NCBI GenBank assembly: GCA_012270555.1
Contig: JAAXIC010000006.1
Span: 65,374 to 129,373 of the forward strand
DNA from: Chloroflexota bacterium
GTDB taxonomy: Bacteria; Chloroflexota; UBA11872; VXOZ01
Length of the DNA stretch: 64,000 bases
Reading direction: 5' to 3'
Both the position numbers and the translations under genes were made by a program. The notes beneath the pieces were generated by a model. The model was not told the origin of the DNA, did not search any database, and saw only the letters and a program-made list of their open reading frames with translations. This document shows positions 4,084-13,734 of the stretch, piece by piece; within the stretch, counting starts at the first letter, position 1, and each line of letters opens with the position of its first letter.

Positions 4084-5358
4084 CTATTCGATGTTCACAA
4101 CGATGTCAACCGCCAGCTCGTTGCGTCGCACCAGGAGTGGCGCCACGCTGCCCAGCATATCCCCGGCCTCATCGCCAGCAAAGGCTGCTGCAACCAAGGA
4201 CAGGTTTTGCAGGGTCTCTTCATCGCCCAAGAAGACGGTCATAGCATGCACGTCATCCAGGTAGATGTCGAGGCCTTGCGGGACCAGTTTGACGGTTATC
4301 ATGCTCAGTCCGGCTTCCTTCAAACCTGCCACGGTATCTGCCGGAAGCATGCCGGGCATGCTCAGGTTCAAGCCGATGGCTTCGAGCAGAGGCGCGGTGT
4401 TTTCCAGAATGATAACGTCAGGTACAAGCAGGTCGCCGTTGGCACTCAAGACTGTGCCGACAGTGAGCGGATACTGCGGGTCCGCAGCGCCGGGCACATC
4501 GGGAGGCTGCGACGTATCGCCGGAGAACTTATCGACTGCCGCAGCGCCGTCCGCCGTGGGGAAATCCACCGCGACGGTGCCAATCATCGCCAACGCGAGA
4601 GGCACGGCGAGATCGGGCAGCGCCACTTCATAGCCAAGTCCCTTCACAAGCGAAATGACTTTGTCCAGCGCAGCCTGCTCGTAGTTTACGGAAACGCGGA
4701 GCGCAAAGCCGCCATTGACGTAGACGTCGATATCGCCGCCCGGCCCCTTGATGATTTGGATGTGTTGTAGATTGGCCGCTTGTAAGGACTCGATGGCTGA
4801 AGCCGATAGGACTTCACCGACACCGAGTTGACTAATCTCACCCTCTGACAAACCGAGGGTGAACTCCTGTCCGGCAAGGAATGTGCGAACCTCTACGCCG
4901 CTGATGCCGCCGTTATCGCCGAATTGCACGGCTGCTTGCGGCAAGCCGTAGATCTCGATTGACTCTTCAGCGCGCTCCGGCGGTGCGCCCGGGCCGGAAA
5001 TCGGCTGGGCAGCCGACATTCGCGCCGGTGCAAACGGTGTAGAAAGCCCGTGGCTCACAAAGCCCGTGGAAACAATCAAAAGCGAAGCCAGCAGGCCTAC
5101 TATTCCGCCGATGATCAGGCCGACAATGCCCACGGCCTGACCGGTACCGGTACCACCACCGAGTTGGTACCCTGCCTTATAGCCAAGCCCCGCGCCGAGG
5201 TAGAGCAGTGAGAAGAGCAAACCAAAACTCACTAAGAACAGGATTGCCGCGAACTTAGTGAGTCCTCCACCCACCGCTACCAGCACAATCAGAGCGATGA
5301 TGACAAGGACCAACCACAGAATTGGTACGGGCACCCACCAATGTCTCCAGGTGGTCAT
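4084..5358 (-). CDS. Membrane-anchored hypothetical protein (paralog of 5545..6534)
   Basis: Start taken at MTTWRHWW (ATG 5356-5358, RBS GAGGGAAGG). N-terminal hydrophobic segments plus a Gly-rich linker, then a soluble domain sharing IKGPGGDIDVYVNGGFALRVSVNYEQAALDKVISLVKGLG with the downstream paralog. + strand ORF 3952..4770 judged antisense. Confidence 0.55.
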   Translation of the reverse strand: MTTWRHWWVPVPILWLVLVIIALIVLVAVGGGLTKFAAILFLVSFGLLFSLLYLGAGLGYKAGYQLGGGTGTGQAVGIVGLIIGGIVGLLASLLIVSTGFVSHGLSTPFAPARMSAAQPISGPGAPPERAEESIEIYGLPQAAVQFGDNGGISGVEVRTFLAGQEFTLGLSEGEISQLGVGEVLSASAIESLQAANLQHIQIIKGPGGDIDVYVNGGFALRVSVNYEQAALDKVISLVKGLGYEVALPDLAVPLALAMIGTVAVDFPTADGAAAVDKFSGDTSQPPDVPGAADPQYPLTVGTVLSANGDLLVPDVIILENTAPLLEAIGLNLSMPGMLPADTVAGLKEAGLSMITVKLVPQGLDIYLDDVHAMTVFLGDEETLQNLSLVAAAFAGDEAGDMLGSVAPLLVRRNELAVDIVVNIE

Positions 5359-5544
5359 AGCCTTCCCTCTCTGTGCTTGCATGCATTCATGGTTTCGAGT
5401 CTAACGTTCATGCAAAGATACTGTCTGTCTTCAAGCCTTCTCTAAGCAATGAGGGATACCCTTGGGGCGCATAGGGTATCCCTCACCACCTGCGTATGAC
5501 GGGAGCGTAGTGCTTTTCCTGATTTACACTACTGCAACCCCTTC

Positions 5545-6534
5545 TTACGGCAGGCTCACCGTCAGGTCAACGTCAATGCGGTCACGCAAGTGCAAGTATG
5601 GCAGAACAATACTAGCTTGCGGTGCGAACGCAGTGAGGATGCCCAATGCATCGGCGCCGCCCAAGCGGACGTCAGCCAGCATCTCACCGTTGCTACCCAG
5701 CGACAGACCGTCATTGTTGATCTTGACGTTCAACTCGCTGATGCCGTTGTCCGTCATGAGGGCAATGATGGCCGGAGCCAACTCGGTGCCAACCACACCA
5801 AGGTCGGCAGCAGACATACCCAGCACGGAGAGATTGCCGTCGGCATCGTAGCTGACATTGGCCTTGGCCATCAGCTCAATCTCTTGTTGCTCGGTGCCCA
5901 CGTAGCCGGAAGGCGCGCCTTCTTCACGTACCGGAATGGCCGACTCACCAATGGTGATGACCACGTCGCCACCAGAAGCGAGCACCACGGGAACCACAAC
6001 GTCCCGCAAGGGGATGGCAATGCCGGTGAAACCTTCCACCAGATTGAGCACCCGCTCGTAGTTCGCTGCATCCTCGCCAAGGTTTACACCAATGGTGTAA
6101 GCGCCGTTGACGTAGATGTCAATCAAGCCGTCAACGCCCTTTACGACCTGAAGGTGCTCGACACCAGCGCCCGTAAGCAAGCCCAAGGTCATGGCATCAA
6201 GGCCCAGCGCCGGTACAGGAATACCAAACGCGCTTAGCGCGGCTAGATCGTTCGCCGAGATACTCACCGGCGTAGCCGTGCCGCCGATGAAGACGCTAGT
6301 CGTTACCGACTGCAAAGCACCATCGTCACCAAGGGCGATGGTAATTCGAGGCGGCACGATCACAACTTCCATCTGCGCCGCAGATGCGCTGGACTGTGCC
6401 GCTGAAGCGATGCGCGCCGGCAGAGATACTGCCAACAGCGCAACGATTACCGCAATCACGAGAGCGACCTGGACAAGGGAACTGTACAGGAACGTCCTGT
6501 CTAGTGACTGGGTAGGGTATCTGGTAATACGCAT
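5545..6534 (-). CDS. Membrane-anchored hypothetical protein (paralog of 4084..5358)
   Basis: Single N-terminal TM (LVQVALVIAVIVALLAVSL), then a domain with VKGVDGLIDIYVNGAYTIGVNLGEDAANYERVLNLVEGFTG matching the upstream paralog. Same strand, tandem arrangement. Confidence 0.55.
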   Translation of the reverse strand: MRITRYPTQSLDRTFLYSSLVQVALVIAVIVALLAVSLPARIASAAQSSASAAQMEVVIVPPRITIALGDDGALQSVTTSVFIGGTATPVSISANDLAALSAFGIPVPALGLDAMTLGLLTGAGVEHLQVVKGVDGLIDIYVNGAYTIGVNLGEDAANYERVLNLVEGFTGIAIPLRDVVVPVVLASGGDVVITIGESAIPVREEGAPSGYVGTEQQEIELMAKANVSYDADGNLSVLGMSAADLGVVGTELAPAIIALMTDNGISELNVKINNDGLSLGSNGEMLADVRLGGADALGILTAFAPQASIVLPYLHLRDRIDVDLTVSLP

Positions 6535-7106
6535 TGATCCCTCCTCCTGAAGATCCGTTCGGGTTCGGTACGCCCCTTCACCGAACGCTACCTGAATGAT
6601 ACATACTGCTCACCACGTTTTCGATACCCACGGTGTGGTGCTGCTGACATTATGGGGAACGCTCCAATACCTGTCAAGGACAAAGCCTCTATTCAACCGA
6701 AAAAGTAACAAGATTCCGGGAAAATTCCGGTTATGACCTGTATATGCGGGTTGTCAATAGATGAAATGACCGTTGGTGAGGCATATTTTCCTATTGACAA
6801 GGAGATGATTTGGAAAATGCGGCTACAGAAAAGCTTGACAGATTATGACTATAGGGGTCTGAGCGGCAAGGGCATTTTTCTCATGACCCAGGAATCGTCT
6901 CGCGAGAAGAGGGATTCTTCAACTGCGGCATCATGAATCTTTGCGCGGAATCCGTAATTCTGAATTCTGCCGCAAACGTTGGCCGGCTCAACGACCTGCT
7001 CTTAAGCGAGGCGAATGCTATAGCGCCAGGCGGTCTTTACAAAGGTCACCATAGAGGAGAACTACAGCTTCAGAGAGGAGAGTTGCGGCTTGCAGGGGCG
7101 GCAATC

Positions 7107-7583
7107 TCAGAAAGCTGGGCGCGTTGCCGGCAGCTCGAGGACGTTACGCGCCTGCTCCAGAAAGGCATCGTCCGTGGTGGTGATGACGCGCGTCGAGACG
7201 TTGCCGCGGGGGTTGAACTCCATCATGAGCAACGCGCCGCGCGGCTCCAGCCCTGCCAGCAACTCGTCGAAAAGTTCGTTGGTGATGCGTTCGTGGGAAA
7301 AGTACTTGTCGCGGAAGCTATTAAAGTAAAGCTTCAACGTCCTGAGGTCCACGATGCGCGCATCGGGAATATACACCATGGTGGCGACAGCGAAGTCCGG
7401 GTAGCCGGAAACGGGGTCCTTAAAGGTAAGTTCCGGCAGGCGGATTTGCACGTAGTAGTCGCGCTTGGGCTCCGGGTTGGGGAAGTAGCGGATCTCTACG
7501 GATTGGATCTCCTCTTCCCCGTACCGTACCCGGCGCCTCTTCCTTTTGCTGCCTTGGCTCTTGTCGGATTCTTCGGTGCTCAT
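7107..7583 (-). CDS. QueF (NADPH-dependent 7-cyano-7-deazaguanine reductase) family T-fold protein, catalytic Cys replaced by Asp
   Basis: DYYVQIRLPELTFKDPVSGYPDFAVATMVYIPDARIVDLRTLKLYFNSFRD...FNPRGNVS aligns to unimodular QueF ([33 protein letters not shown]...ESKSLKLYLFSFRN...FTPRGGIS). The QueF motif and GxPDF are retained, but the thioimide-forming Cys is D (confirmed by re-translating 7390-7480). Start uncertain (7583 or 7637). Confidence 0.6.
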   Translation of the reverse strand: MSTEESDKSQGSKRKRRRVRYGEEEIQSVEIRYFPNPEPKRDYYVQIRLPELTFKDPVSGYPDFAVATMVYIPDARIVDLRTLKLYFNSFRDKYFSHERITNELFDELLAGLEPRGALLMMEFNPRGNVSTRVITTTDDAFLEQARNVLELPATRPAF

Positions 7584-7745
7584 CTCAAACGTCCTCAACG
7601 CCGGTCGCGGCGCGTGTGTATCATCGGTATGCAGCAAGCATGGACATGCCGCAATGCTGCAAATATGACCGTACTATGTCGCTCTGCGGAACGTCAACCC
7701 ACGCTGGAGACCTTTGCGTAACGATGTCCTGAGGGAAGGGTGTTA

Positions 7746-9051: not shown

Positions 9052-12000
9052 ATGCCACTAGATCAAGATCGCCAATTAGAGATCGTTATCGAACTTCTCA
9101 GCCGACCAGGGCACGAGAAGGTGCGGTCACTTGTCTATTCACTGCTAGTGGACGGCCTGGGAGCGAAGAGCGGCCAAATCCGTTTCGAGAAGCGACTCAA
9201 TGAGGTGCGTGGTCGTGCAGACGCGTTGTTGGGACGTACACTCTTCGAGTTTAAGCGCGATCTGCGGGCTGAATCTGCGGACGCGGAGTCGCAACTTGCC
9301 CGCTATATCAACCAGCGGCAAAAGGACACCAGTGAGCATTACATCGGCATCGCTACCGACGGCGCAGTCTTCATTGCCTATGAGTTGCAGGGCGAAACGG
9401 TAGTAGAGCTTGCTCGATATACGCCTTCCGTTGACGACCCTGGCATGCTTCTCACTTGGCTGGATACCGCAGTCGCCATTCAGCCTGAGATTCCGCCCGA
9501 ACCTGACGCCGTACGCAAGGAACTCGGGCGGGCAAGCCTCTCGTACTTTGTCGCGCATACTGAACTCGCGCGCTTGTGGCAAGAGGTAAAGTCAACGCCG
9601 GACGTGGCGCTCAAGCGCACGTTGTGGGCGGACTTGCTGCAAATGGTCTACGGCGAATCTGTGGATGCGGCTGACTTCGTCAAAGGCGACGACCTTTTCT
9701 TCCAGCACACGTATCTCACCGTTGTGGCGAAGACGATGGCAACGCAGGCGCTTGGCATCCCTCTGCCGCAGCCGGCTGATTTGCTTTCCGGTCAGCCATT
9801 TCGCGACGCAGGCATTACGGGGGCGGTGGAATCCGACTTCTTCGATTGGATTCTCGCTGTGCCGGACGGGGCCACGTTAGTGAACCGCATTGCCACGCAG
9901 GCCGCTCGCTTTCGCCTGCAGGACATCGAGCATGACGTGCTGAAAGGCCTCTACGAGTCGCTCATCGATCCCGAGCAGCGCCACCAACTGGGCGAATACT
10001 ATACGCCGGACTGGCTGGCGGACCTGATGGTGCGGGAGGTGGTGACAGACCCGCTCGCGCAGCGTGTGCTTGATCCCTCCTGCGGCTCCGGCACGTTCCT
10101 CTTCCATGCCGTGCGTCACTTTCTGGCAGCGGCGGAAGAAAAGGGGTACGAGAATAGAGTTGCGCTGGCGGAGTGCACGCGCAACGTCTTGGGCGTGGAC
10201 ATTCATCCAGTGGCGGCACTCATCGCGCGTGTTACTTATATCTTGGCTCTCGGCTCGGAGCGTTTGAATGACAGGGATGAACTGGCTATACCGGTTTACC
10301 TGGGGGATTCGCTCCAATGGAATACGGAAGGCTTTATCGCTGGGCGAGACGTGGTCATTCGTGTGCCGGACGGCCCCCAGCTTCACTTCCCCACCGCAAT
10401 TGTGGCGGACCTGGGCAGCTTCGAGCAGGTCGTGCAGGTGATGTTGGATTCTAGCGAGCGGGACGCACCGGCATCGGCTTTACGCGCATGGTTGCAGCGG
10501 GAGAACATCGGCGGCGATTGGGAAAGAGACACGTTGGCAGCCACGTATCAGCATCTCTGCGACCTTCGTGCGGCAGATCGGGACCACATCTGGGGCTACG
10601 TGGTGCGCAACCAGGCGCGTCCGGTGTGGCTATCTTCTCCACAGCAGCGCGCAGACGTCATCATCGGCAATCCGCCGTGGCTCGCGTATCGCTACATGTC
10701 CGCTGCCATGCAAAAACGTTTCAAGGAGGAGTGCCAACGGCGCAACCTGTGGGCCGGCGGGCGCGTGGCGACGCACCAAGACCTCTCCGCCTACTTCTAC
10801 GCCCGCTGCGCCGAACTCTACGCGATCCAGGAACCTGATCGCCACAGCCTGATCGCCTTTGTCTTGCCCTATGCCACGCTTCACCGCAAGCAATATGAGG
10901 GCTTCCGCAGTGGAGTCTTTGGGAAAGGCGACGTGGTGTTCGCGCGGGCCGCGTTTCAGGCAGCCTGGACGTTTGACGAGTCCGTGCAGCCGCTCTTTCC
11001 CGTGCCCGCGTGCGTACTTATTGGTCGTGTGGGCGCGGGAGGTACACTGCCGCAGCAGGTGACAGCGTACTCCGGTGCGTTGCCCCGCCGCGACGCTACG
11101 CCGGCAGAGGCGGCGCGCTATCTTATCCAGCGACCCGCGCCGTGGCCGACGGGCGGGGAATTGGCGGGCGGCTCCGCGTACCGTGAGAAGTTTCGCCAGG
11201 GCGCGACGCTCGTACCGCGCATGCTTTGTTTAGTGGAGGAAGTTCAGTCGGTGGGAATGCTGGGCAGCGCCGCGGACACACCCATCGTTCAGAGCCGCCG
11301 CACGCGCCAGGAGAAGGAGCCGTGGAAAAGTCTCCCCGCCCTCCAGCAACAAGTGGAGAGGGAGTTCCTCCGTCCTGTCTATCTCGGTGAGTCTATTGCC
11401 CCTTATCGCCTGCTCCAACCGGTGCAAGGCGTCATCCCCTGGGAGGCTGGAAAAAAGCGCCTGCTCGACGCTGCGGCCGCGCAACATTCCGGCTATCCGC
11501 ATTTGGCCGGTTGGCTTCAAGAAGCCGAACGGCTTTGGGATACGCGCGGTGCTGGGAAAATGACCCTAGTGGAGCGCTGGGACTACCATCGGGAGCTCAA
11601 CGCGCAATTTCCAGTGCCATCAGTGCGGGTTGTCTTTGCGGCTTCCGGGACATTGCCAGCCGCCGCAATCCTGAATGAAGATCAGGGAGTCTTGGAGCAT
11701 GCCTTGTACTGGGCCGCAACCGGCAAGCGCGAGGCGCACTACATAGTAGCCATCTTGAATAGCGAAGCCGCGCGCAGCCAGGTCGCTGCCATGCAGGCTC
11801 GCGGACAGTGGGGCGCGCGCCACTTCGACAAGCTCATGTTCGAGTTGCCCATACCCCTCTTCAACGTCAACGATCCTCTCCACCGCGAACTCTCCGCAGC
11901 CGCCGCCCGCGCCGCCAAAGTCGCCGCCAACGTCCCCCTCAAAGAAGGCATGTACTTCGTCACCGCCCGCAAGCACATCCGCGCCGCCCTCCACGACGAC

Positions 12001-12060
12001 GGCATTGTCCAAGAGATCGAGGAACTGGTGACCAGACTGCTCGCTTTGCCTCAGTCCTAA
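9052..12060 (+). CDS. Fused restriction endonuclease / N6-adenine DNA methyltransferase, MmeI / Type IIG-IIL-like (1002 aa)
   Basis: N-terminal PD-(D/E)xK-like motif RADALLGRTLFEFKRDL (D-x8-E-x-K). MTase motif I VLDPSCGSGTFLFHA and motif IV IIGNPPW. ~400 aa C-terminal putative target-recognition region. ATG 6 nt after the upstream gene's stop, with no SD. Confidence 0.65.
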   Translation: MPLDQDRQLEIVIELLSRPGHEKVRSLVYSLLVDGLGAKSGQIRFEKRLNEVRGRADALLGRTLFEFKRDLRAESADAESQLARYINQRQKDTSEHYIGIATDGAVFIAYELQGETVVELARYTPSVDDPGMLLTWLDTAVAIQPEIPPEPDAVRKELGRASLSYFVAHTELARLWQEVKSTPDVALKRTLWADLLQMVYGESVDAADFVKGDDLFFQHTYLTVVAKTMATQALGIPLPQPADLLSGQPFRDAGITGAVESDFFDWILAVPDGATLVNRIATQAARFRLQDIEHDVLKGLYESLIDPEQRHQLGEYYTPDWLADLMVREVVTDPLAQRVLDPSCGSGTFLFHAVRHFLAAAEEKGYENRVALAECTRNVLGVDIHPVAALIARVTYILALGSERLNDRDELAIPVYLGDSLQWNTEGFIAGRDVVIRVPDGPQLHFPTAIVADLGSFEQVVQVMLDSSERDAPASALRAWLQRENIGGDWERDTLAATYQHLCDLRAADRDHIWGYVVRNQARPVWLSSPQQRADVIIGNPPWLAYRYMSAAMQKRFKEECQRRNLWAGGRVATHQDLSAYFYARCAELYAIQEPDRHSLIAFVLPYATLHRKQYEGFRSGVFGKGDVVFARAAFQAAWTFDESVQPLFPVPACVLIGRVGAGGTLPQQVTAYSGALPRRDATPAEAARYLIQRPAPWPTGGELAGGSAYREKFRQGATLVPRMLCLVEEVQSVGMLGSAADTPIVQSRRTRQEKEPWKSLPALQQQVEREFLRPVYLGESIAPYRLLQPVQGVIPWEAGKKRLLDAAAAQHSGYPHLAGWLQEAERLWDTRGAGKMTLVERWDYHRELNAQFPVPSVRVVFAASGTLPAAAILNEDQGVLEHALYWAATGKREAHYIVAILNSEAARSQVAAMQARGQWGARHFDKLMFELPIPLFNVNDPLHRELSAAAARAAKVAANVPLKEGMYFVTARKHIRAALHDDGIVQEIEELVTRLLALPQS

Positions 12061-12095
12061 AGTTGGCAGCTATTAGGCACTCACGAATCCCGCCC

Positions 12096-12124
12096 TTACG
12101 TACCTTATGTATTAGGTACGTAAA
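12096..12124. promoter_or_regulatory. Perfect 10-bp inverted repeat TTACGTACCT-N8-AGGTACGTAA (terminator of the RM gene and/or operator of the downstream cassette)
   Basis: Located 36 nt after the RM stop and ~130 nt upstream of the 12255 start, in an AT-rich stretch. Confidence 0.45.
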
Positions 12125-12148
12125 TCGGGTGAATCGCCAGCAACTCAT

Positions 12149-12177
12149 TTGCAGAGCATGAGAGAATGGAATTATAG
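12149..12177 (+). promoter_or_regulatory. Putative sigma70-like promoter TTGCAG-17-TTATAG for the 12255 cassette
   Basis: Hexamers at 12149-12154 and 12172-12177 with a 17-bp spacer, ~80 nt upstream of the start codon; weak inference from consensus only. Confidence 0.3.
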
Positions 12178-12254
12178 AACTGTACGCAGACTTAGGGTAT
12201 TCTCTAGTCAAATGCAGACTACAGGCGAAGTCTAGCCTTCTGGGAGGAACCGAA

Positions 12255-13055
12255 ATGGCAAGATTGCATCTCACAGTGAAAGGTGAGCTCGGCAACATTG
12301 CTTTCGATTCACTTACCCTGGTGCTGGCAAAGTCTGACTCGATACTGCGCCGTTTTGATCGCGCGGTGTCCGGGAAAGAGAAAGGCACTATGAAGTGGAT
12401 GGTAGCAGGGCTCAAGGAAGGCAATAGCGGCACAATCGAAATGCGCAGTCGCGTCATTAGCGGGGACACAGACTTTGGCGTTCAAGTGGGGTCTCGGTAC
12501 ATTGAGACGATAGACCACATTGAAACTCAAGGAGAGGCCCCACCCGATTATGATCTGGACATGCTCAGGGACTTGCAGGCCATGACTCGTGCGTTTGGTC
12601 GGAATGGTGTGGATGGGCTCAGTGTAAGCATGCCCGATTACAACAAGGGCGCGTTGCTCTCTTGGAAGTCTGATGAAATACTTCAGAATCTCACCGGGGT
12701 TCATTACAAGACGATTGGTTCTGTCGAGGGAAGAGTTGAATTAGTCTCCCTGCATGACGGAAACCGATATTTCAATGTTTACCACGCAGTTACGGACAGA
12801 GCAGTCCGGTGTTCTCTACCCGAAGAACGCGAGGAAGCGGTCATCGAAGACTTGAAACGCAAGCGTCGCGTAGTTGTGTCTGGAGAGATCTCTTACAACG
12901 TTGAAGGGAGGTTGCTTAGTGTAAGTGTAGACCGATATTGCAGATTGTGGGACGGAGATAAGCTACCAACACTCGAGGACTCCTTGGGCGTAGCACCAGA
13001 CCTAACAGGCAACCAGAATACTGAGGAATACATTCGGAGCCTGCGCGATGGCTGA
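12255..13055 (+). CDS. Hypothetical 266-aa protein, no recognisable domain; upstream partner of a PIN nuclease
   Basis: Clean ORF in a visibly lower-GC block. RBS GGGAGGAACCGAAATG. Stop overlaps the next gene's start by 8 nt. Confidence 0.5.
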   Translation: MARLHLTVKGELGNIAFDSLTLVLAKSDSILRRFDRAVSGKEKGTMKWMVAGLKEGNSGTIEMRSRVISGDTDFGVQVGSRYIETIDHIETQGEAPPDYDLDMLRDLQAMTRAFGRNGVDGLSVSMPDYNKGALLSWKSDEILQNLTGVHYKTIGSVEGRVELVSLHDGNRYFNVYHAVTDRAVRCSLPEEREEAVIEDLKRKRRVVVSGEISYNVEGRLLSVSVDRYCRLWDGDKLPTLEDSLGVAPDLTGNQNTEEYIRSLRDG

Positions 13056-13581
13056 ATCCTTTAGTAAGCCCTACCTCGACTCATCCGTCTTTTTTGCGCA
13101 CGTCAAGAAAGAGACAATCGAGTGCCCTGACGGCTTGAAGCGATGGGAGGTGGCGTACGGTATTCTGAAGGACGCGCAGAGTGGTTTGTACAAAGTATTC
13201 ACTTCTACGGTTACACTGGCAGAGGTGCGACGAATCAAGATTAAGAATGAGGAGCTGAACGAGAGCGAACTTGAAGCGGTGCGCAACCTCTTTGCCCACG
13301 AGTTCATTAGTCTAGTTGAGGTTAACCGTGAAATCGCGGAAAAGGCGCAACGATTAGGTGCAACCTACGGTATCTCTCCTATGGACTCTCTTCATCTGGC
13401 AACGGCAATTTGGTGGAAATGCGACGTATTTCTCTACTGGGACAAGAAGCTGGCGGCAGCACTTGGGCCAGGCCCTATTGAGGACGTCGTACTCGCTGAA
13501 CCCTACTGGCCGAGGGCTAGCGGTGGGTTACCTATGGGATTGCAACCAGAGAGTAGTGAGAATAGCAGTTCGCCAGAGTGA
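13048..13581 (+). CDS. PIN-domain ribonuclease (VapC-like)
   Basis: N-terminal YLDSSVF (first acidic residue). Further conserved acidic positions in ...TLAEV..., ...GISPMDSLHLATAI... and ...WDKK... fit a four-acidic-residue PIN core. 8-nt overlap with the upstream gene. Confidence 0.6.
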   Translation: MAESFSKPYLDSSVFFAHVKKETIECPDGLKRWEVAYGILKDAQSGLYKVFTSTVTLAEVRRIKIKNEELNESELEAVRNLFAHEFISLVEVNREIAEKAQRLGATYGISPMDSLHLATAIWWKCDVFLYWDKKLAAALGPGPIEDVVLAEPYWPRASGGLPMGLQPESSENSSSPE

Positions 13582-13647
13582 GGCCTTAGACAGTTTGTAG
13601 CCTGCGCCCACGAATTGAGCGGCAATTGGGTTGGTTCATTAGGAAAG

Positions 13648-13686
13648 AAAGAGGGTGGTACCGATTTGGTACCACCCTCTTGTATT
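13648..13686. terminator. Bidirectional intrinsic terminator (AGAGGGTGGTACC-GATTT-GGTACCACCCTCT)
   Basis: Perfect 13-bp stem; T-rich flank on the minus strand (TTTCTTTCC) terminates the convergent 13735..15123 gene, and a weaker TTGTATT flank on +. Confidence 0.6.
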
Positions 13687-13734
13687 CCCAGACCTATCGC
13701 ATGAAAGACCCGGTACTGACTCAGTGAGCCAGGT

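What the first reader, a model, noticed from the sequence alone, without database searches (positions are those of the whole stretch)
12061..13690. Low-GC orphan (266 aa) + PIN-nuclease two-gene cassette directly downstream of the restriction-modification gene: candidate novel toxin-antitoxin / abortive-infection module
The block 12061-13650 looks clearly AT-richer than the ~65% GC flanks. It begins with a perfect 10-bp inverted repeat (TTACGTACCT-N8-AGGTACGTAA) and a plausible TTGCAG-17-TTATAG promoter. It encodes a 266-aa protein with no domain I can recognise, whose stop overlaps by 8 nt the start of a PIN-domain (VapC-like) nuclease, and it ends in a strong bidirectional terminator. A PIN toxin normally pairs with a small (~70-90 aa) DNA-binding antitoxin; a 266-aa partner is atypical and suggests a sensor/regulator-type partner as in abortive-infection systems. 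The position next to a fused RM enzyme fits the defence-island pattern.
Basis: partly seen in the sequence, partly recalled or inferred. Interest (0 to 1): 0.75.

Follow-up and report, generated by a model that had tools for sequence, protein, structure and literature searches.

The report
PIN nuclease with new OB-fold partner
A VapC-type PIN nuclease gene is always preceded by an uncharacterised 266-residue protein (ferredoxin-like domain, OB fold, conserved flexible tail), forming a widespread mobile two-gene cassette that is most likely a toxin-antitoxin or phage-defence module with a new kind of large antitoxin.

Summary
The sequence features are real. There are two overlapping + strand genes: 12255-13055 (266 aa, "A") and 13048-13581 (177 aa, PIN). 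GC is about 0.50 against 0.60-0.69 in the flanks, and a type IIG restriction-modification (RM) gene lies upstream.

A is not an orphan. It belongs to a family of more than 1,300 clusters at 50% identity, with no match in Pfam, NCBIfam, PADLOC or PHROGs.

The pairing is nearly obligate:
- 91 of 94 loci found through A alone carry the same PIN subfamily directly downstream.
- 6 of 6 loci found through the PIN carry A upstream.
- The overlap is usually 8 nt.

The cassette occurs in Chloroflexota, Acidobacteriota, Spirochaetia, Actinomycetota, Bathyarchaeia, and a temperate Pseudomonas aeruginosa phage beside its repressor gene.

Structure prediction gives a ferredoxin-like N-domain, an OB fold and a conserved low-confidence C-terminal tail. 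Decayed copies either lose the PIN and keep A, or keep the PIN together with A's OB fold and tail.

Best reading (0.6): a VapBC-like toxin-antitoxin or abortive-infection module in which A's tail neutralises the PIN and its folded domains may sense nucleic acid. Neutralisation, toxicity and defence are all untested.

The palindrome is not conserved and the proposed promoter is weak. The neighbouring RM gene decays in relatives, so the cassette is independent of it.

Verdict: a new variant of a known kind.

The parts
12096..12123 (.). Inverted repeat TTACGTACCT-N8-AGGTACGTAA in the spacer after the RM gene. It is probably not part of the cassette.
   Evidence: Found. It carries one mismatch in L001 and is absent from the orthologous loci L016-L018.
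12140..12254 (+). Conserved upstream leader and putative promoter region of the cassette. It includes a sequence-conserved inverted repeat (AGAGAAT 12161-12167 / ATTCTCT 12199-12205) and the Shine-Dalgarno sequence GGGAGG at 12242-12247.
   Evidence: Conservation among the window, L001 and L016-L018 starts at about 12140. The predicted hairpin shows almost no covariation. No sigma-70-like site was scored.
12255..13055 (+). Gene A: a 266-aa uncharacterised partner protein and the putative antitoxin or sensor.
   Evidence: ORF. No match in four family libraries. The family has 1,326 clusters at 50% identity. dN/dS is 0.14-0.23. The AF2 model has pLDDT 89.7.
12255..12698 (+). A residues 1-148: ferredoxin-like alpha/beta N-terminal domain.
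12699..12950 (+). A residues 149-232: OB-fold domain (beta1-beta2-beta3-alpha-beta4-beta5) carrying the GSVEGR(L/V)E ... RFNVYH ... AVRC ... GRRVVVSG motifs.
12951..13052 (+). A residues 233-266: conserved, low-confidence C-terminal tail (LP..x..G..PD.TG...TEEYIRSLRDG). This is the proposed PIN-neutralising segment.
   Evidence: pLDDT is 56-72. Column entropy equals that of the OB fold and is lower than that of the N-domain. By my count on the alignment, 16 of 34 residues are identical to the Pseudomonas phage homologue, against 22.6% overall. The tail is retained in every decayed copy that keeps an intact PIN.
13036..13055 (+). Translational-coupling junction: a GGAG Shine-Dalgarno sequence inside the IRS codons of A, and the PIN ATG 8 nt before A's stop codon.
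   Evidence: The overlap is -8 nt in 45 of 66 full-length pairs, -4 in 7 and -11 in 6.
13048..13581 (+). PIN-domain (VapC-like) nuclease, 177 aa. This is the putative toxin or effector.
   Evidence: Pfam PIN, E = 1.9e-12. A profile of the subfamily hits solved VapC 7by2_B at E = 9.2e-5. D11, E59 and D113 are invariant and D132 nearly invariant. dN/dS is 0.05-0.15.
13642..13688 (.). GC-rich hairpin between the convergent PIN and solute-binding-protein genes; a likely shared terminator.
   Evidence: 14-bp stem, 8 GC pairs, scored as a terminator on the - strand.

Best explanation
Genes 12255-13055 (A) and 13048-13581 (PIN) form one autonomous, horizontally mobile two-gene cassette of the VapBC type, with a non-canonical large first component.

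The PIN protein is a Mg-dependent VapC-like ribonuclease and acts as the toxin or effector. A is co-translated just ahead of it. A holds the PIN inactive through its conserved, intrinsically flexible C-terminal tail (residues about 233-266, ending in EEYIRSLRDG with conserved arginines). This is how VapB tails, the VapS C-terminal helix and the VapB52 C-terminal domain occlude VapC active sites.

The two folded domains of A are a ferredoxin-like domain and an OB fold with conserved aromatic and basic residues. They replace the usual DNA-binding domain of an antitoxin. I propose they act as a sensor or regulatory module, most plausibly by binding a nucleic acid such as ssDNA or a tRNA-like RNA. 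A trigger such as phage infection or DNA damage would then free the nuclease and arrest the cell (abortive infection or addiction).

Shown here:
- gene structure;
- near-obligate pairing in both directions;
- purifying selection on both genes;
- the predicted folds;
- mobility and carriage by a prophage;
- the pattern of decay in degraded copies.

Inferred, not shown:
- PIN toxicity;
- neutralisation by the tail;
- nucleic-acid sensing;
- a role in phage defence.
For: Pairing:
- Loci found through A alone carry a same-strand PIN of one subfamily immediately downstream in 21/22 testable genome loci and 70/72 metagenome loci.
- Loci found through the PIN carry an A-family gene upstream in 6/6 cases.
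- Gene order is A then PIN. The overlap is 8 nt in 45/66 pairs, with an embedded GGAG. This matches the classic antitoxin-first, translationally coupled layout.

Selection:
- Both genes are under purifying selection, with dN/dS 0.05-0.23.

The PIN:
- It is VapC-like and its catalytic residues are intact.
- NCBI annotates the Pseudomonas orthologue as 'type II toxin-antitoxin system VapC family toxin', while its partner is 'hypothetical protein'.

The tail of A:
- It is predicted with low confidence (pLDDT 56-72) on an otherwise confident model.
- It is nevertheless as conserved as the OB fold.
- It is the best-conserved segment between the window protein and the distant Pseudomonas phage homologue.

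Decay series:
- A is intact and the PIN deleted in L002-L004 and L061.
- The PIN is intact with only the OB fold and tail of A left in L030 and L033.
- The PIN is intact with only a 47-aa tail ORF in L124.
- In a cultured P. aeruginosa isolate, A is split at the boundary between the N-domain and the OB fold, and the PIN is intact.
- No locus had an intact PIN without the tail.

Mobility:
- Distribution is patchy across at least six bacterial phyla and an archaeon.
- GC is lower than the flanks in most hosts.
- Contexts vary: next to type IIG, type ISP and type I RM systems, next to Gabija-like OLD-TOPRIM plus UvrD genes, in TA-rich islands, and inside a cobalamin operon.
- A temperate Pseudomonas phage carries it directly after its S24 repressor gene.

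Independence from the RM gene:
- In the orthologous loci of three Chloroflexota genomes the cassette is intact while the RM gene is reduced to remnants.

Precedents for large sensor antitoxins of VapC:
- VapB52, which self-cleaves when triggered by ssDNA (PMC13273310).
- VapS/VapK (PMC13373217).
Against: - No experiment and no complex model supports the interaction.
- Inter-protein covariation on 53 pairs was dominated by outlier columns and is inconclusive.
- A has none of the DNA-binding folds of known antitoxins.
- No conserved operator was found.
- At least one characterised PIN two-gene defence system, DS-5, is explicitly not a TA. Deleting its partner abolished defence without releasing toxicity (PMC13092281).
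- The decay argument has an ascertainment bias. Most loci were found with patterns inside A (GSVEGR.. and TEEYIR..), so PIN-only loci could not be detected in that set. Only six loci were found from the PIN side.
- The invariant acidic residues in OB strand beta1 (E158, E162) are unusual for a nucleic-acid-binding face. E158 is also replaced in the Pseudomonas branch.
Confidence: 0.6

Rival explanations
1. The cassette is a two-component defence nuclease and not a toxin-antitoxin pair. A is a required positive partner. It recognises or recruits the target (phage nucleic acid or a tRNA) through its OB fold and activates or guides the PIN, which is not toxic on its own. This would resemble DS-5 (PIN plus a DUF5830/AcrIF4-like protein) or HEC-03 (ABC ATPase plus PIN).
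For: - A carries an OB fold most similar to ssDNA-binding and tRNA-anticodon-binding domains. It lacks any antitoxin-type DNA-binding fold.
- DS-5 shows that a PIN with a larger partner can need both proteins without TA behaviour (PMC13092281).
- HEC-03 pairs a VapC-like PIN with a non-VapB partner.
- Strict co-occurrence and defence-type neighbourhoods fit this model equally well.
Against: - The gene order, the conserved 8-nt overlap and the conserved disordered C-terminal tail next to the toxin gene are the hallmarks of antitoxins.
- Intact A genes persist after the PIN is deleted.
- Copies that keep the PIN always keep the tail, even when the N-domain is lost. That asymmetry is expected for a toxin and its neutraliser, not for two mutually dependent parts.
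Confidence: 0.25
2. The pair is a housekeeping or accessory RNA- or DNA-processing complex: a PIN nuclease with an OB-fold substrate-binding subunit, unrelated to conflict systems.
For: - Both genes are under purifying selection.
- The pair is retained at the same chromosomal position in four related Chloroflexota genomes.
- One copy sits inside a cobalamin operon.
Against: - Distribution across phyla is patchy.
- GC is consistently lower than the flanks.
- It diverges faster than flanking genes. A is 77% identical between the window and L017, against 92-98% for neighbours.
- It is carried in a temperate phage immunity region.
- Copies are frequently decayed or disrupted by insertion sequences.
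- RM, TA or Gabija-like neighbours recur.
Confidence: 0.07
3. The cassette is functionally tied to the adjacent type IIG RM enzyme, for example as an accessory or addiction module for that RM system.
For: - It lies directly downstream of the RM gene on the same strand.
- RM genes adjoin the cassette in several unrelated loci: type ISP in L005, type I in L006 and L125, and an HSDR_N protein in L002.
Against: - In the orthologous loci L016-L018 the RM gene is reduced to fragments while A and the PIN stay intact and under selection.
- The RM types differ between loci.
- Many loci have no RM gene within 5 kb.
- The cassette has its own conserved leader, starting at about 12140.
Confidence: 0.05

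Closest known systems
Canonical VapBC type II toxin-antitoxin systems
   Same: - A PIN/VapC-like toxin with the D-E-D-D acidic site.
- The partner gene lies upstream and overlaps the toxin gene.
- The partner ends in a flexible, conserved C-terminal segment with arginines.
- The module is mobile, patchily distributed and often lies in defence or TA islands.
   Different: - The partner is 266 aa, not 70-100 aa.
- It has a ferredoxin-like domain and an OB fold in place of an RHH, AbrB, Phd or HTH DNA-binding domain.
- No conserved operator palindrome was found.
- The partner family is absent from Pfam, NCBIfam, PADLOC and PHROGs.
VapBC52 of Mycobacterium tuberculosis (PMC13273310)
   Same: - A VapC toxin with an exceptionally large, multidomain antitoxin whose terminal domain occludes the active site.
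- The antitoxin acts as a sensor (ssDNA) and the system defends against phage.
   Different: - VapB52 is 46 kDa and built from helical terminal domains plus an IrrE/CapP-type HEXXH peptidase and an HTH. It self-cleaves.
- A has no peptidase or HTH signature and completely different folds.
VapKSC (PMC13373217)
   Same: - A VapC-like toxin neutralised by a non-VapB folded domain plus a short C-terminal region that reaches the active site.
- It is an anti-phage system and responds to ssDNA.
   Different: - VapKSC has three genes, with a GHKL kinase and a STAS-domain antitoxin controlled by phosphorylation.
- The cassette here has two genes, with no kinase and no STAS fold.
DS-5 (DefensePredictor, PMC13092281) and HEC-03 (10.1101/2024.01.29.577857)
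   Same: Two-gene anti-phage systems that pair a PIN nuclease with a larger, non-VapB partner.
   Different: - The partners are a DUF5830/AcrIF4-like protein (DS-5) and an ABC ATPase (HEC-03). Neither signature is found in A.
- DS-5 was shown not to behave as a TA.
OB-fold nucleic-acid-binding domains (SSB, RPA, PriB; anticodon-binding domains of Asp/Asn/Lys-tRNA synthetases)
   Different: - Sequence identity is only 13-20%.
- There is no significant sequence-profile match (best PDB profile hit E = 0.34; Pfam tRNA_anti-codon only E = 0.009, in 5 of 60 members).
- Ligand binding is untested.

Membership tests
PIN domain / VapC-like nucleases (PF01850) | Significant match to the PIN profile | tested here: met
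   Pfam PIN, E = 1.9e-12, 48.3 bits against a cut-off of 23.6. The subfamily profile hits solved VapC 7by2_B at E = 9.2e-5.
PIN domain / VapC-like nucleases (PF01850) | Four conserved acidic active-site residues | tested here: met
   D11, E59 and D113 are invariant and D132 is conserved in at least 90% of 25 subfamily members. The same holds in 23 paired PINs, with occasional D-to-E or D-to-N changes.
PIN domain / VapC-like nucleases (PF01850) | Mg-dependent ribonuclease activity and a defined RNA target | not testable with these tools
   Needs biochemistry or RNA-end mapping.
Type II toxin-antitoxin system (VapBC type) | Bicistronic operon with the antitoxin gene first, adjacent to or overlapping the toxin gene | tested here: met
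   The 8-nt overlap in the window is conserved in 45/66 pairs. 64 of the 66 pairs overlap or abut.
Type II toxin-antitoxin system (VapBC type) | Small antitoxin with an N-terminal DNA-binding domain (RHH, AbrB, Phd/YefM or HTH) | tested here: not met
Type II toxin-antitoxin system (VapBC type) | Antitoxin C-terminal region binds the toxin and blocks its active site | not testable with these tools
The only support is indirect: a conserved low-pLDDT tail and its retention in decayed copies.
Type II toxin-antitoxin system (VapBC type) | Toxin arrests growth and the antitoxin rescues it | not testable with these tools
   Requires expression experiments.
Type II toxin-antitoxin system (VapBC type) | Autoregulation through a palindromic operator in the promoter | tested here: inconclusive
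   The window palindrome at 12096-12123 is not conserved in orthologues. No recurrent inverted repeat occurs upstream of A in 24 loci. A leader inverted repeat conserved in sequence shows no covariation.
VapBC52-like (IrrE/CapP peptidase-HTH antitoxin) | HEXXH metallopeptidase domain plus HTH in the antitoxin | tested here: not met
   No peptidase or HTH family appears among the Pfam hits for A or 60 of its homologues. The folds differ.
VapKSC | STAS-domain antitoxin plus a GHKL kinase gene in the operon | tested here: not met
   No third conserved gene is present: a type IIG RM gene upstream and a convergent SBP gene downstream. The folds of A are not STAS.
Known anti-phage defence systems in PADLOC-DB v2.0.0 | Match of either protein to a PADLOC model | tested here: not met
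   Neither A nor the PIN matches any family at E <= 1.
DS-5 (PIN plus DUF5830/AcrIF4-like partner) | Partner protein with DUF5830 | tested here: not met
   DUF5830 is not among the Pfam hits for A at E <= 0.1, nor among the listed families for its 60 homologues at E <= 1. The DS-5 sequences themselves were not available for comparison.
OB-fold nucleic-acid-binding proteins | Five-stranded beta-barrel with a helix between beta3 and beta4 | tested here: met
OB-fold nucleic-acid-binding proteins | Binds ssDNA or RNA | not testable with these tools
   Only conserved aromatic and basic residues (F173, Y176, H177, R160, R205) point to this.

The most novel reading that the evidence does not exclude
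A is a new class of self-contained sensor antitoxin. Its OB fold, with the ferredoxin-like domain, would directly bind a nucleic acid produced during phage infection or DNA damage (ssDNA), or the tRNA substrate itself. That binding would pull the C-terminal tail off the PIN active site. Sensing and release would then happen in one non-enzymatic protein, without the protease, kinase or transcriptional circuitry used by VapB52, VapKSC or canonical VapB.
Probability: 0.25. Interest if true: 0.75.

Novelty: new variant of a known kind. Interest (0 to 1): 0.6.

Why it matters
PIN/VapC toxins are the largest toxin family in prokaryotes. How they are switched on is a central open question. Two 2026 studies showed that unusually large VapC partners act as sensors of ssDNA.

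The cassette described here adds a third, unrelated partner architecture: a ferredoxin-like domain, an OB fold and a tail.
- The partner family is large, at more than 1,300 clusters at 50% identity.
- It spans bacteria and archaea.
- It is absent from Pfam, NCBIfam, PADLOC and PHROGs, so current annotation reports these PIN genes as VapC toxins with no recognised partner.

An orthologous pair lies in the immunity region of a temperate P. aeruginosa phage and in hundreds of P. aeruginosa genome contigs. The hypothesis can therefore be tested directly in a tractable host.

If confirmed, the result would supply a new antitoxin or defence family model. It could also give a simple example of nucleic-acid-gated toxin release.

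Tried and rejected
1. **AF2 of an A-(GGGGS)6-PIN fusion with 18 paired sequences.** This was meant to test tail docking.
2. **Inter-protein mutual information (APC-corrected) on 53 non-redundant pairs.** Tail positions made up 24 of the top 100 pairs against 13 expected. The top scores come from near-invariant columns driven by one or two divergent lineages, so I treat the result as inconclusive.
3. **Palindrome as operator.** Rejected, because it is not conserved in orthologues.
4. **Sigma-70 promoter.** None scored.
5. **Leader RNA hairpin.** Conserved in sequence but with no covariation.
6. **PADLOC scan of 140 neighbouring genes from 17 loci.** This was meant to quantify defence enrichment. 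The output was dominated by redundant RM models, each hit by only 2-3 genes, and there was no background for comparison, so I did not pursue it.
7. **afdb50 fold search.** The library was unavailable.
8. **Alignment-based locus search with all 60 sequences.** It failed for lack of a conserved stretch. A 21-sequence subset worked.
9. **Plasmid search.** No A homologue was found in 72,556 plasmids, with either the window protein or the phage protein. IMG/VR held only the Pseudomonas prophage version.
10. **Sequence-profile search of the PDB with the A family.** It gave only a weak SSB-type OB hit (E = 0.34) and a designed helical repeat.
11. **TiaS, which also combines a ferredoxin-like domain with an OB fold.** It appeared only at Foldseek rank 43 with probability 0.63. 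I kept it as a weak lead, not as evidence.
Full report
**1. What is in the window**

Two + strand ORFs occupy the flagged block. Gene A runs 12255-13055 (266 aa). The second gene runs 13048-13581 (177 aa), and its ATG lies 8 nt before A's stop codon.

GC falls to 0.48-0.54 across 12000-13650, against 0.58-0.69 on both sides. A is 0.513 and the PIN 0.515, against 0.61-0.63 for the 3-kb flanks.

The neighbours are as follows:
- Upstream is a 1002-aa type IIG restriction-modification (RM) enzyme (PADLOC REase_MTase_IIG, E = 2.9e-73; Pfam N6_Mtase and Eco57I).
- Downstream, on the opposite strand, are a solute-binding protein and an S9 peptidase.
- A GC-rich hairpin (14-bp stem, 13649-13681) separates the convergent genes.

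The inverted repeat TTACGTACCT-N8-AGGTACGTAA is present at 12096-12123. The proposed TTGCAG-17-TTATAG promoter is a poor match to the consensus, and the scan found no promoter-like site.

**2. The two proteins**

The 177-aa protein is a PIN domain (PF01850, E = 1.9e-12). A profile of its subfamily hits solved VapC (7by2_B, E = 9.2e-5). D11, E59 and D113 are invariant and D132 is nearly invariant.

The 266-aa protein matches nothing in Pfam, PADLOC, NCBIfam or PHROGs. A profile of 60 family members also finds nothing convincing in Pfam or among PDB sequences. The only hints are weak OB-fold matches: SSB at E = 0.34, and tRNA_anti-codon in 5 of 60 members.

It is not an orphan:
- It has 68 close clusters.
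- It has 1,326 representatives at 50% identity with E <= 1e-3, and 348 at E <= 1e-10.
- Most listed members are about 255-275 aa and match the query end to end.
- A profile search returned 106 clusters. None has a Pfam domain and none carries an informative name.

**3. Structure**

AF2 with the family alignment gives a confident model (pLDDT 89.7) with three parts.

- *Residues 233-266.* This is a low-confidence tail (pLDDT 56-72) with the conserved motif LP...G..PD.TG...TEEYIRSLRDG. Its column entropy (1.78 bits) equals that of the OB fold and is lower than that of the N-domain (2.18 bits).

**4. Is the pairing real?**

I searched with A only. Of the 23 genome-collection loci, 22 had enough sequence after A to test, and 21 of those carry a same-strand PIN of the same subfamily immediately after A. 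Of the 80 metagenome loci, 72 were testable and 70 carry it.

Going the other way, six PIN homologues were looked up, down to E = 5e-6. All six have an A-family gene directly upstream (confirmed by hmmsearch).

Among 66 full-length pairs the overlap is 8 nt in 45, 4 nt in 7 and 11 nt in 6. A GGAG sequence is embedded in the IRS codons of A.

Both genes are under purifying selection: dN/dS is 0.11-0.23 for A and 0.05-0.15 for the PIN.

**5. The exceptions are informative**

Cases where the PIN was lost and A remains intact:
- L002-L004: one species in three assemblies. Only the first seven PIN codons remain.
- L061.

Cases where the PIN is intact and A is damaged:
- L030 and L033 have lost the N-domain but keep an in-frame OB-plus-tail ORF.
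- L124 has a frameshift that leaves a 47-aa ORF encoding the tail, still overlapping the PIN gene by 8 nt.
- In a cultured P. aeruginosa isolate (LSP20_ locus tags), A is split at residue about 137, the boundary between the N-domain and the OB fold. The pieces are 147 aa and 151 aa (OB plus tail), and the PIN is intact.

Other cases: in L098 an insertion sequence interrupts A, and in L034 both genes are truncated.

No locus had an intact PIN without the tail. This asymmetry is what a toxin and its neutraliser predict. The caveat is that most loci were found through motifs inside A.

**6. Mobility and context**

Hosts include Chloroflexota and Dehalococcoidia, which are the closest relatives of the window. 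Others are Bryobacterales and other Acidobacteriota, Thermodesulfobacteriota, Spirochaetia, Actinomycetota (Salinispora) and a Bathyarchaeia archaeon. The module's GC is lower than its flanks in most hosts.

Neighbours differ from locus to locus:

| Locus | Neighbours |
|---|---|
| L005 | Type ISP RM |
| L006 | Type I hsdMSR |
| L125 | Type I hsdR |
| L009 | Gabija-like OLD-TOPRIM plus UvrD, and transposases |
| L008 | BrnT/RHH, PIN, DUF433 and a caspase-like gene |
| L002 | An HSDR_N protein, HicAB and Uma2 |
| L014, L030 | Insertion between cobS and cobD |

A temperate P. aeruginosa phage, vB_PaeS_AV001, encodes a 278-aa A homologue (hhalign probability 99.6%, E = 6e-24) and a 177-aa PIN (Pfam E = 2.1e-8). 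The two genes overlap by 11 nt and lie directly after the S24 repressor gene. The same pair is found on hundreds of P. aeruginosa contigs and in four IMG/VR prophage contigs. There, A is named 'hypothetical protein' and the PIN is named 'type II toxin-antitoxin system VapC family toxin'.

No plasmid in PLSDB carries the family.

**7. Relation to the RM gene**

Three related Chloroflexota genomes (L016-L018) hold the cassette at the same position, between the 2-hydroxyacid dehydrogenase and the solute-binding-protein genes. A is 86%, 77% and 68% identical to the window protein in these genomes, and the flanking genes are 86-98% identical.

In these genomes the type IIG RM gene is reduced to fragments: the last 258 aa, the first 98 aa, or 32 plus 39 aa. 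In L001 it is split in two.

The cassette therefore works independently of this RM gene and outlasts it. Conservation upstream of A begins at about 12140, so the palindrome at 12096-12123 lies outside the conserved unit and is not shared. Inverted-repeat searches upstream of A in 24 loci found nothing recurrent.

**8. Mechanism**

The best-supported reading is a VapBC-like cassette. The PIN RNase is held inactive by A's conserved flexible tail. The two folded domains of A stand in place of the usual DNA-binding domain.

Two recent studies show that large VapC partners can be sensors:
- VapB52 is a 46-kDa protein with an IrrE-type peptidase and an HTH. It self-cleaves on contact with ssDNA and frees an anti-phage VapC (PMC13273310).
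- VapS is a STAS-domain protein whose C-terminal helix reaches the VapC active site. It is released after phosphorylation by an ssDNA-activated kinase (PMC13373217).

By analogy, and because OB folds typically bind ssDNA or RNA, I propose that A senses a nucleic acid directly. This step is inference.

The main rival is that A is a required positive partner, as in DS-5. There, deleting the PIN's partner abolished defence without releasing toxicity (PMC13092281). HEC-03 (ABC ATPase plus PIN) is another non-VapB pairing.

I could not test the A-PIN interface.

**9. Verdict**

- The interpretation, a candidate new TA or abortive-infection module with an atypical large partner, is supported by every computational test available.
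- The RM adjacency is common but not essential.
- The system is a new variant of a known kind: a VapC-type toxin with an undescribed, widespread partner family.

Confidence that this is a genuine functional two-gene module is about 0.95. Confidence that A neutralises the PIN (TA-like) is about 0.6. Confidence in an anti-phage role is about 0.45.

Noticed in passing
window 9052-12060; L016-L018 about 5050-5880; L001 4822-7806: The type IIG RM gene is intact in the window. It is split into two ORFs in the near-identical contig L001, and reduced to N- or C-terminal remnants in three related Chloroflexota genomes. The downstream A-PIN cassette stays intact in all of them.
   Followed up: partly
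window 6450-7050 and 7110-7637 (- strand): A second low-GC stretch (0.45-0.51) lies upstream of a QueF-like gene on the - strand (Pfam QueF, E = 7e-22). The long + strand ORF 6933-7721 overlapping that gene is probably spurious.
   Followed up: partly
window 12161-12167 / 12199-12205: A sequence-conserved inverted repeat (AGAGAAT ... ATTCTCT) lies in the cassette's leader and is predicted to form a hairpin in four orthologues. It shows essentially no compensatory changes, so its role (RNA structure or protein binding site) is open.
   Followed up: partly
L014 4223-5492 and L030 5929-6853: In two Dehalococcoidia genomes the cassette is inserted inside a cobalamin biosynthesis operon, between cobS and cobD/cbiB. 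In L030 the N-terminal domain of A has been deleted.
   Followed up: partly
L002 6794-6955: After the first seven PIN codons, the ORF continues into unrelated sequence (…GGRIAVKVVDYTGMEHMRVMDIQ). From memory this resembles the C-terminus of a DNA methyltransferase, which would suggest the PIN was lost by a deletion fusing it to an RM remnant. This was not tested.
   Followed up: no
L039 3062-5315 (Pseudomonas phage vB_PaeS_AV001, PQ349086 34267-36520): The PIN gene of the phage cassette is annotated 'repressor protein' in the GenBank record, which looks like a mis-annotation. The real S24/LexA-type repressor is the gene just upstream.
   Followed up: yes
L009 1694-5520: A Gabija-like pair (AAA_15/OLD-TOPRIM and a UvrD helicase), each apparently split into two ORFs, sits directly upstream of an A-PIN cassette and is flanked by transposases. 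This is a decaying defence island.
   Followed up: no
PIN C-termini in L006, L008, L023, L026, L053, L054 and others: In Acidobacteriota and some groundwater lineages the PIN carries a 60-110-residue low-complexity acidic, Pro/Ser-rich C-terminal extension. This extension is absent from the window protein.
   Followed up: no
L126 80-1354 and family members P0052-P0065: A sub-branch of the A family lacks the PD.TG...EEYIR part of the tail and ends shortly after the LP motif (for example ...LPxxDDVRGILG). In L126 the two genes abut without overlap. Whether these PINs are neutralised differently is unknown.
   Followed up: no
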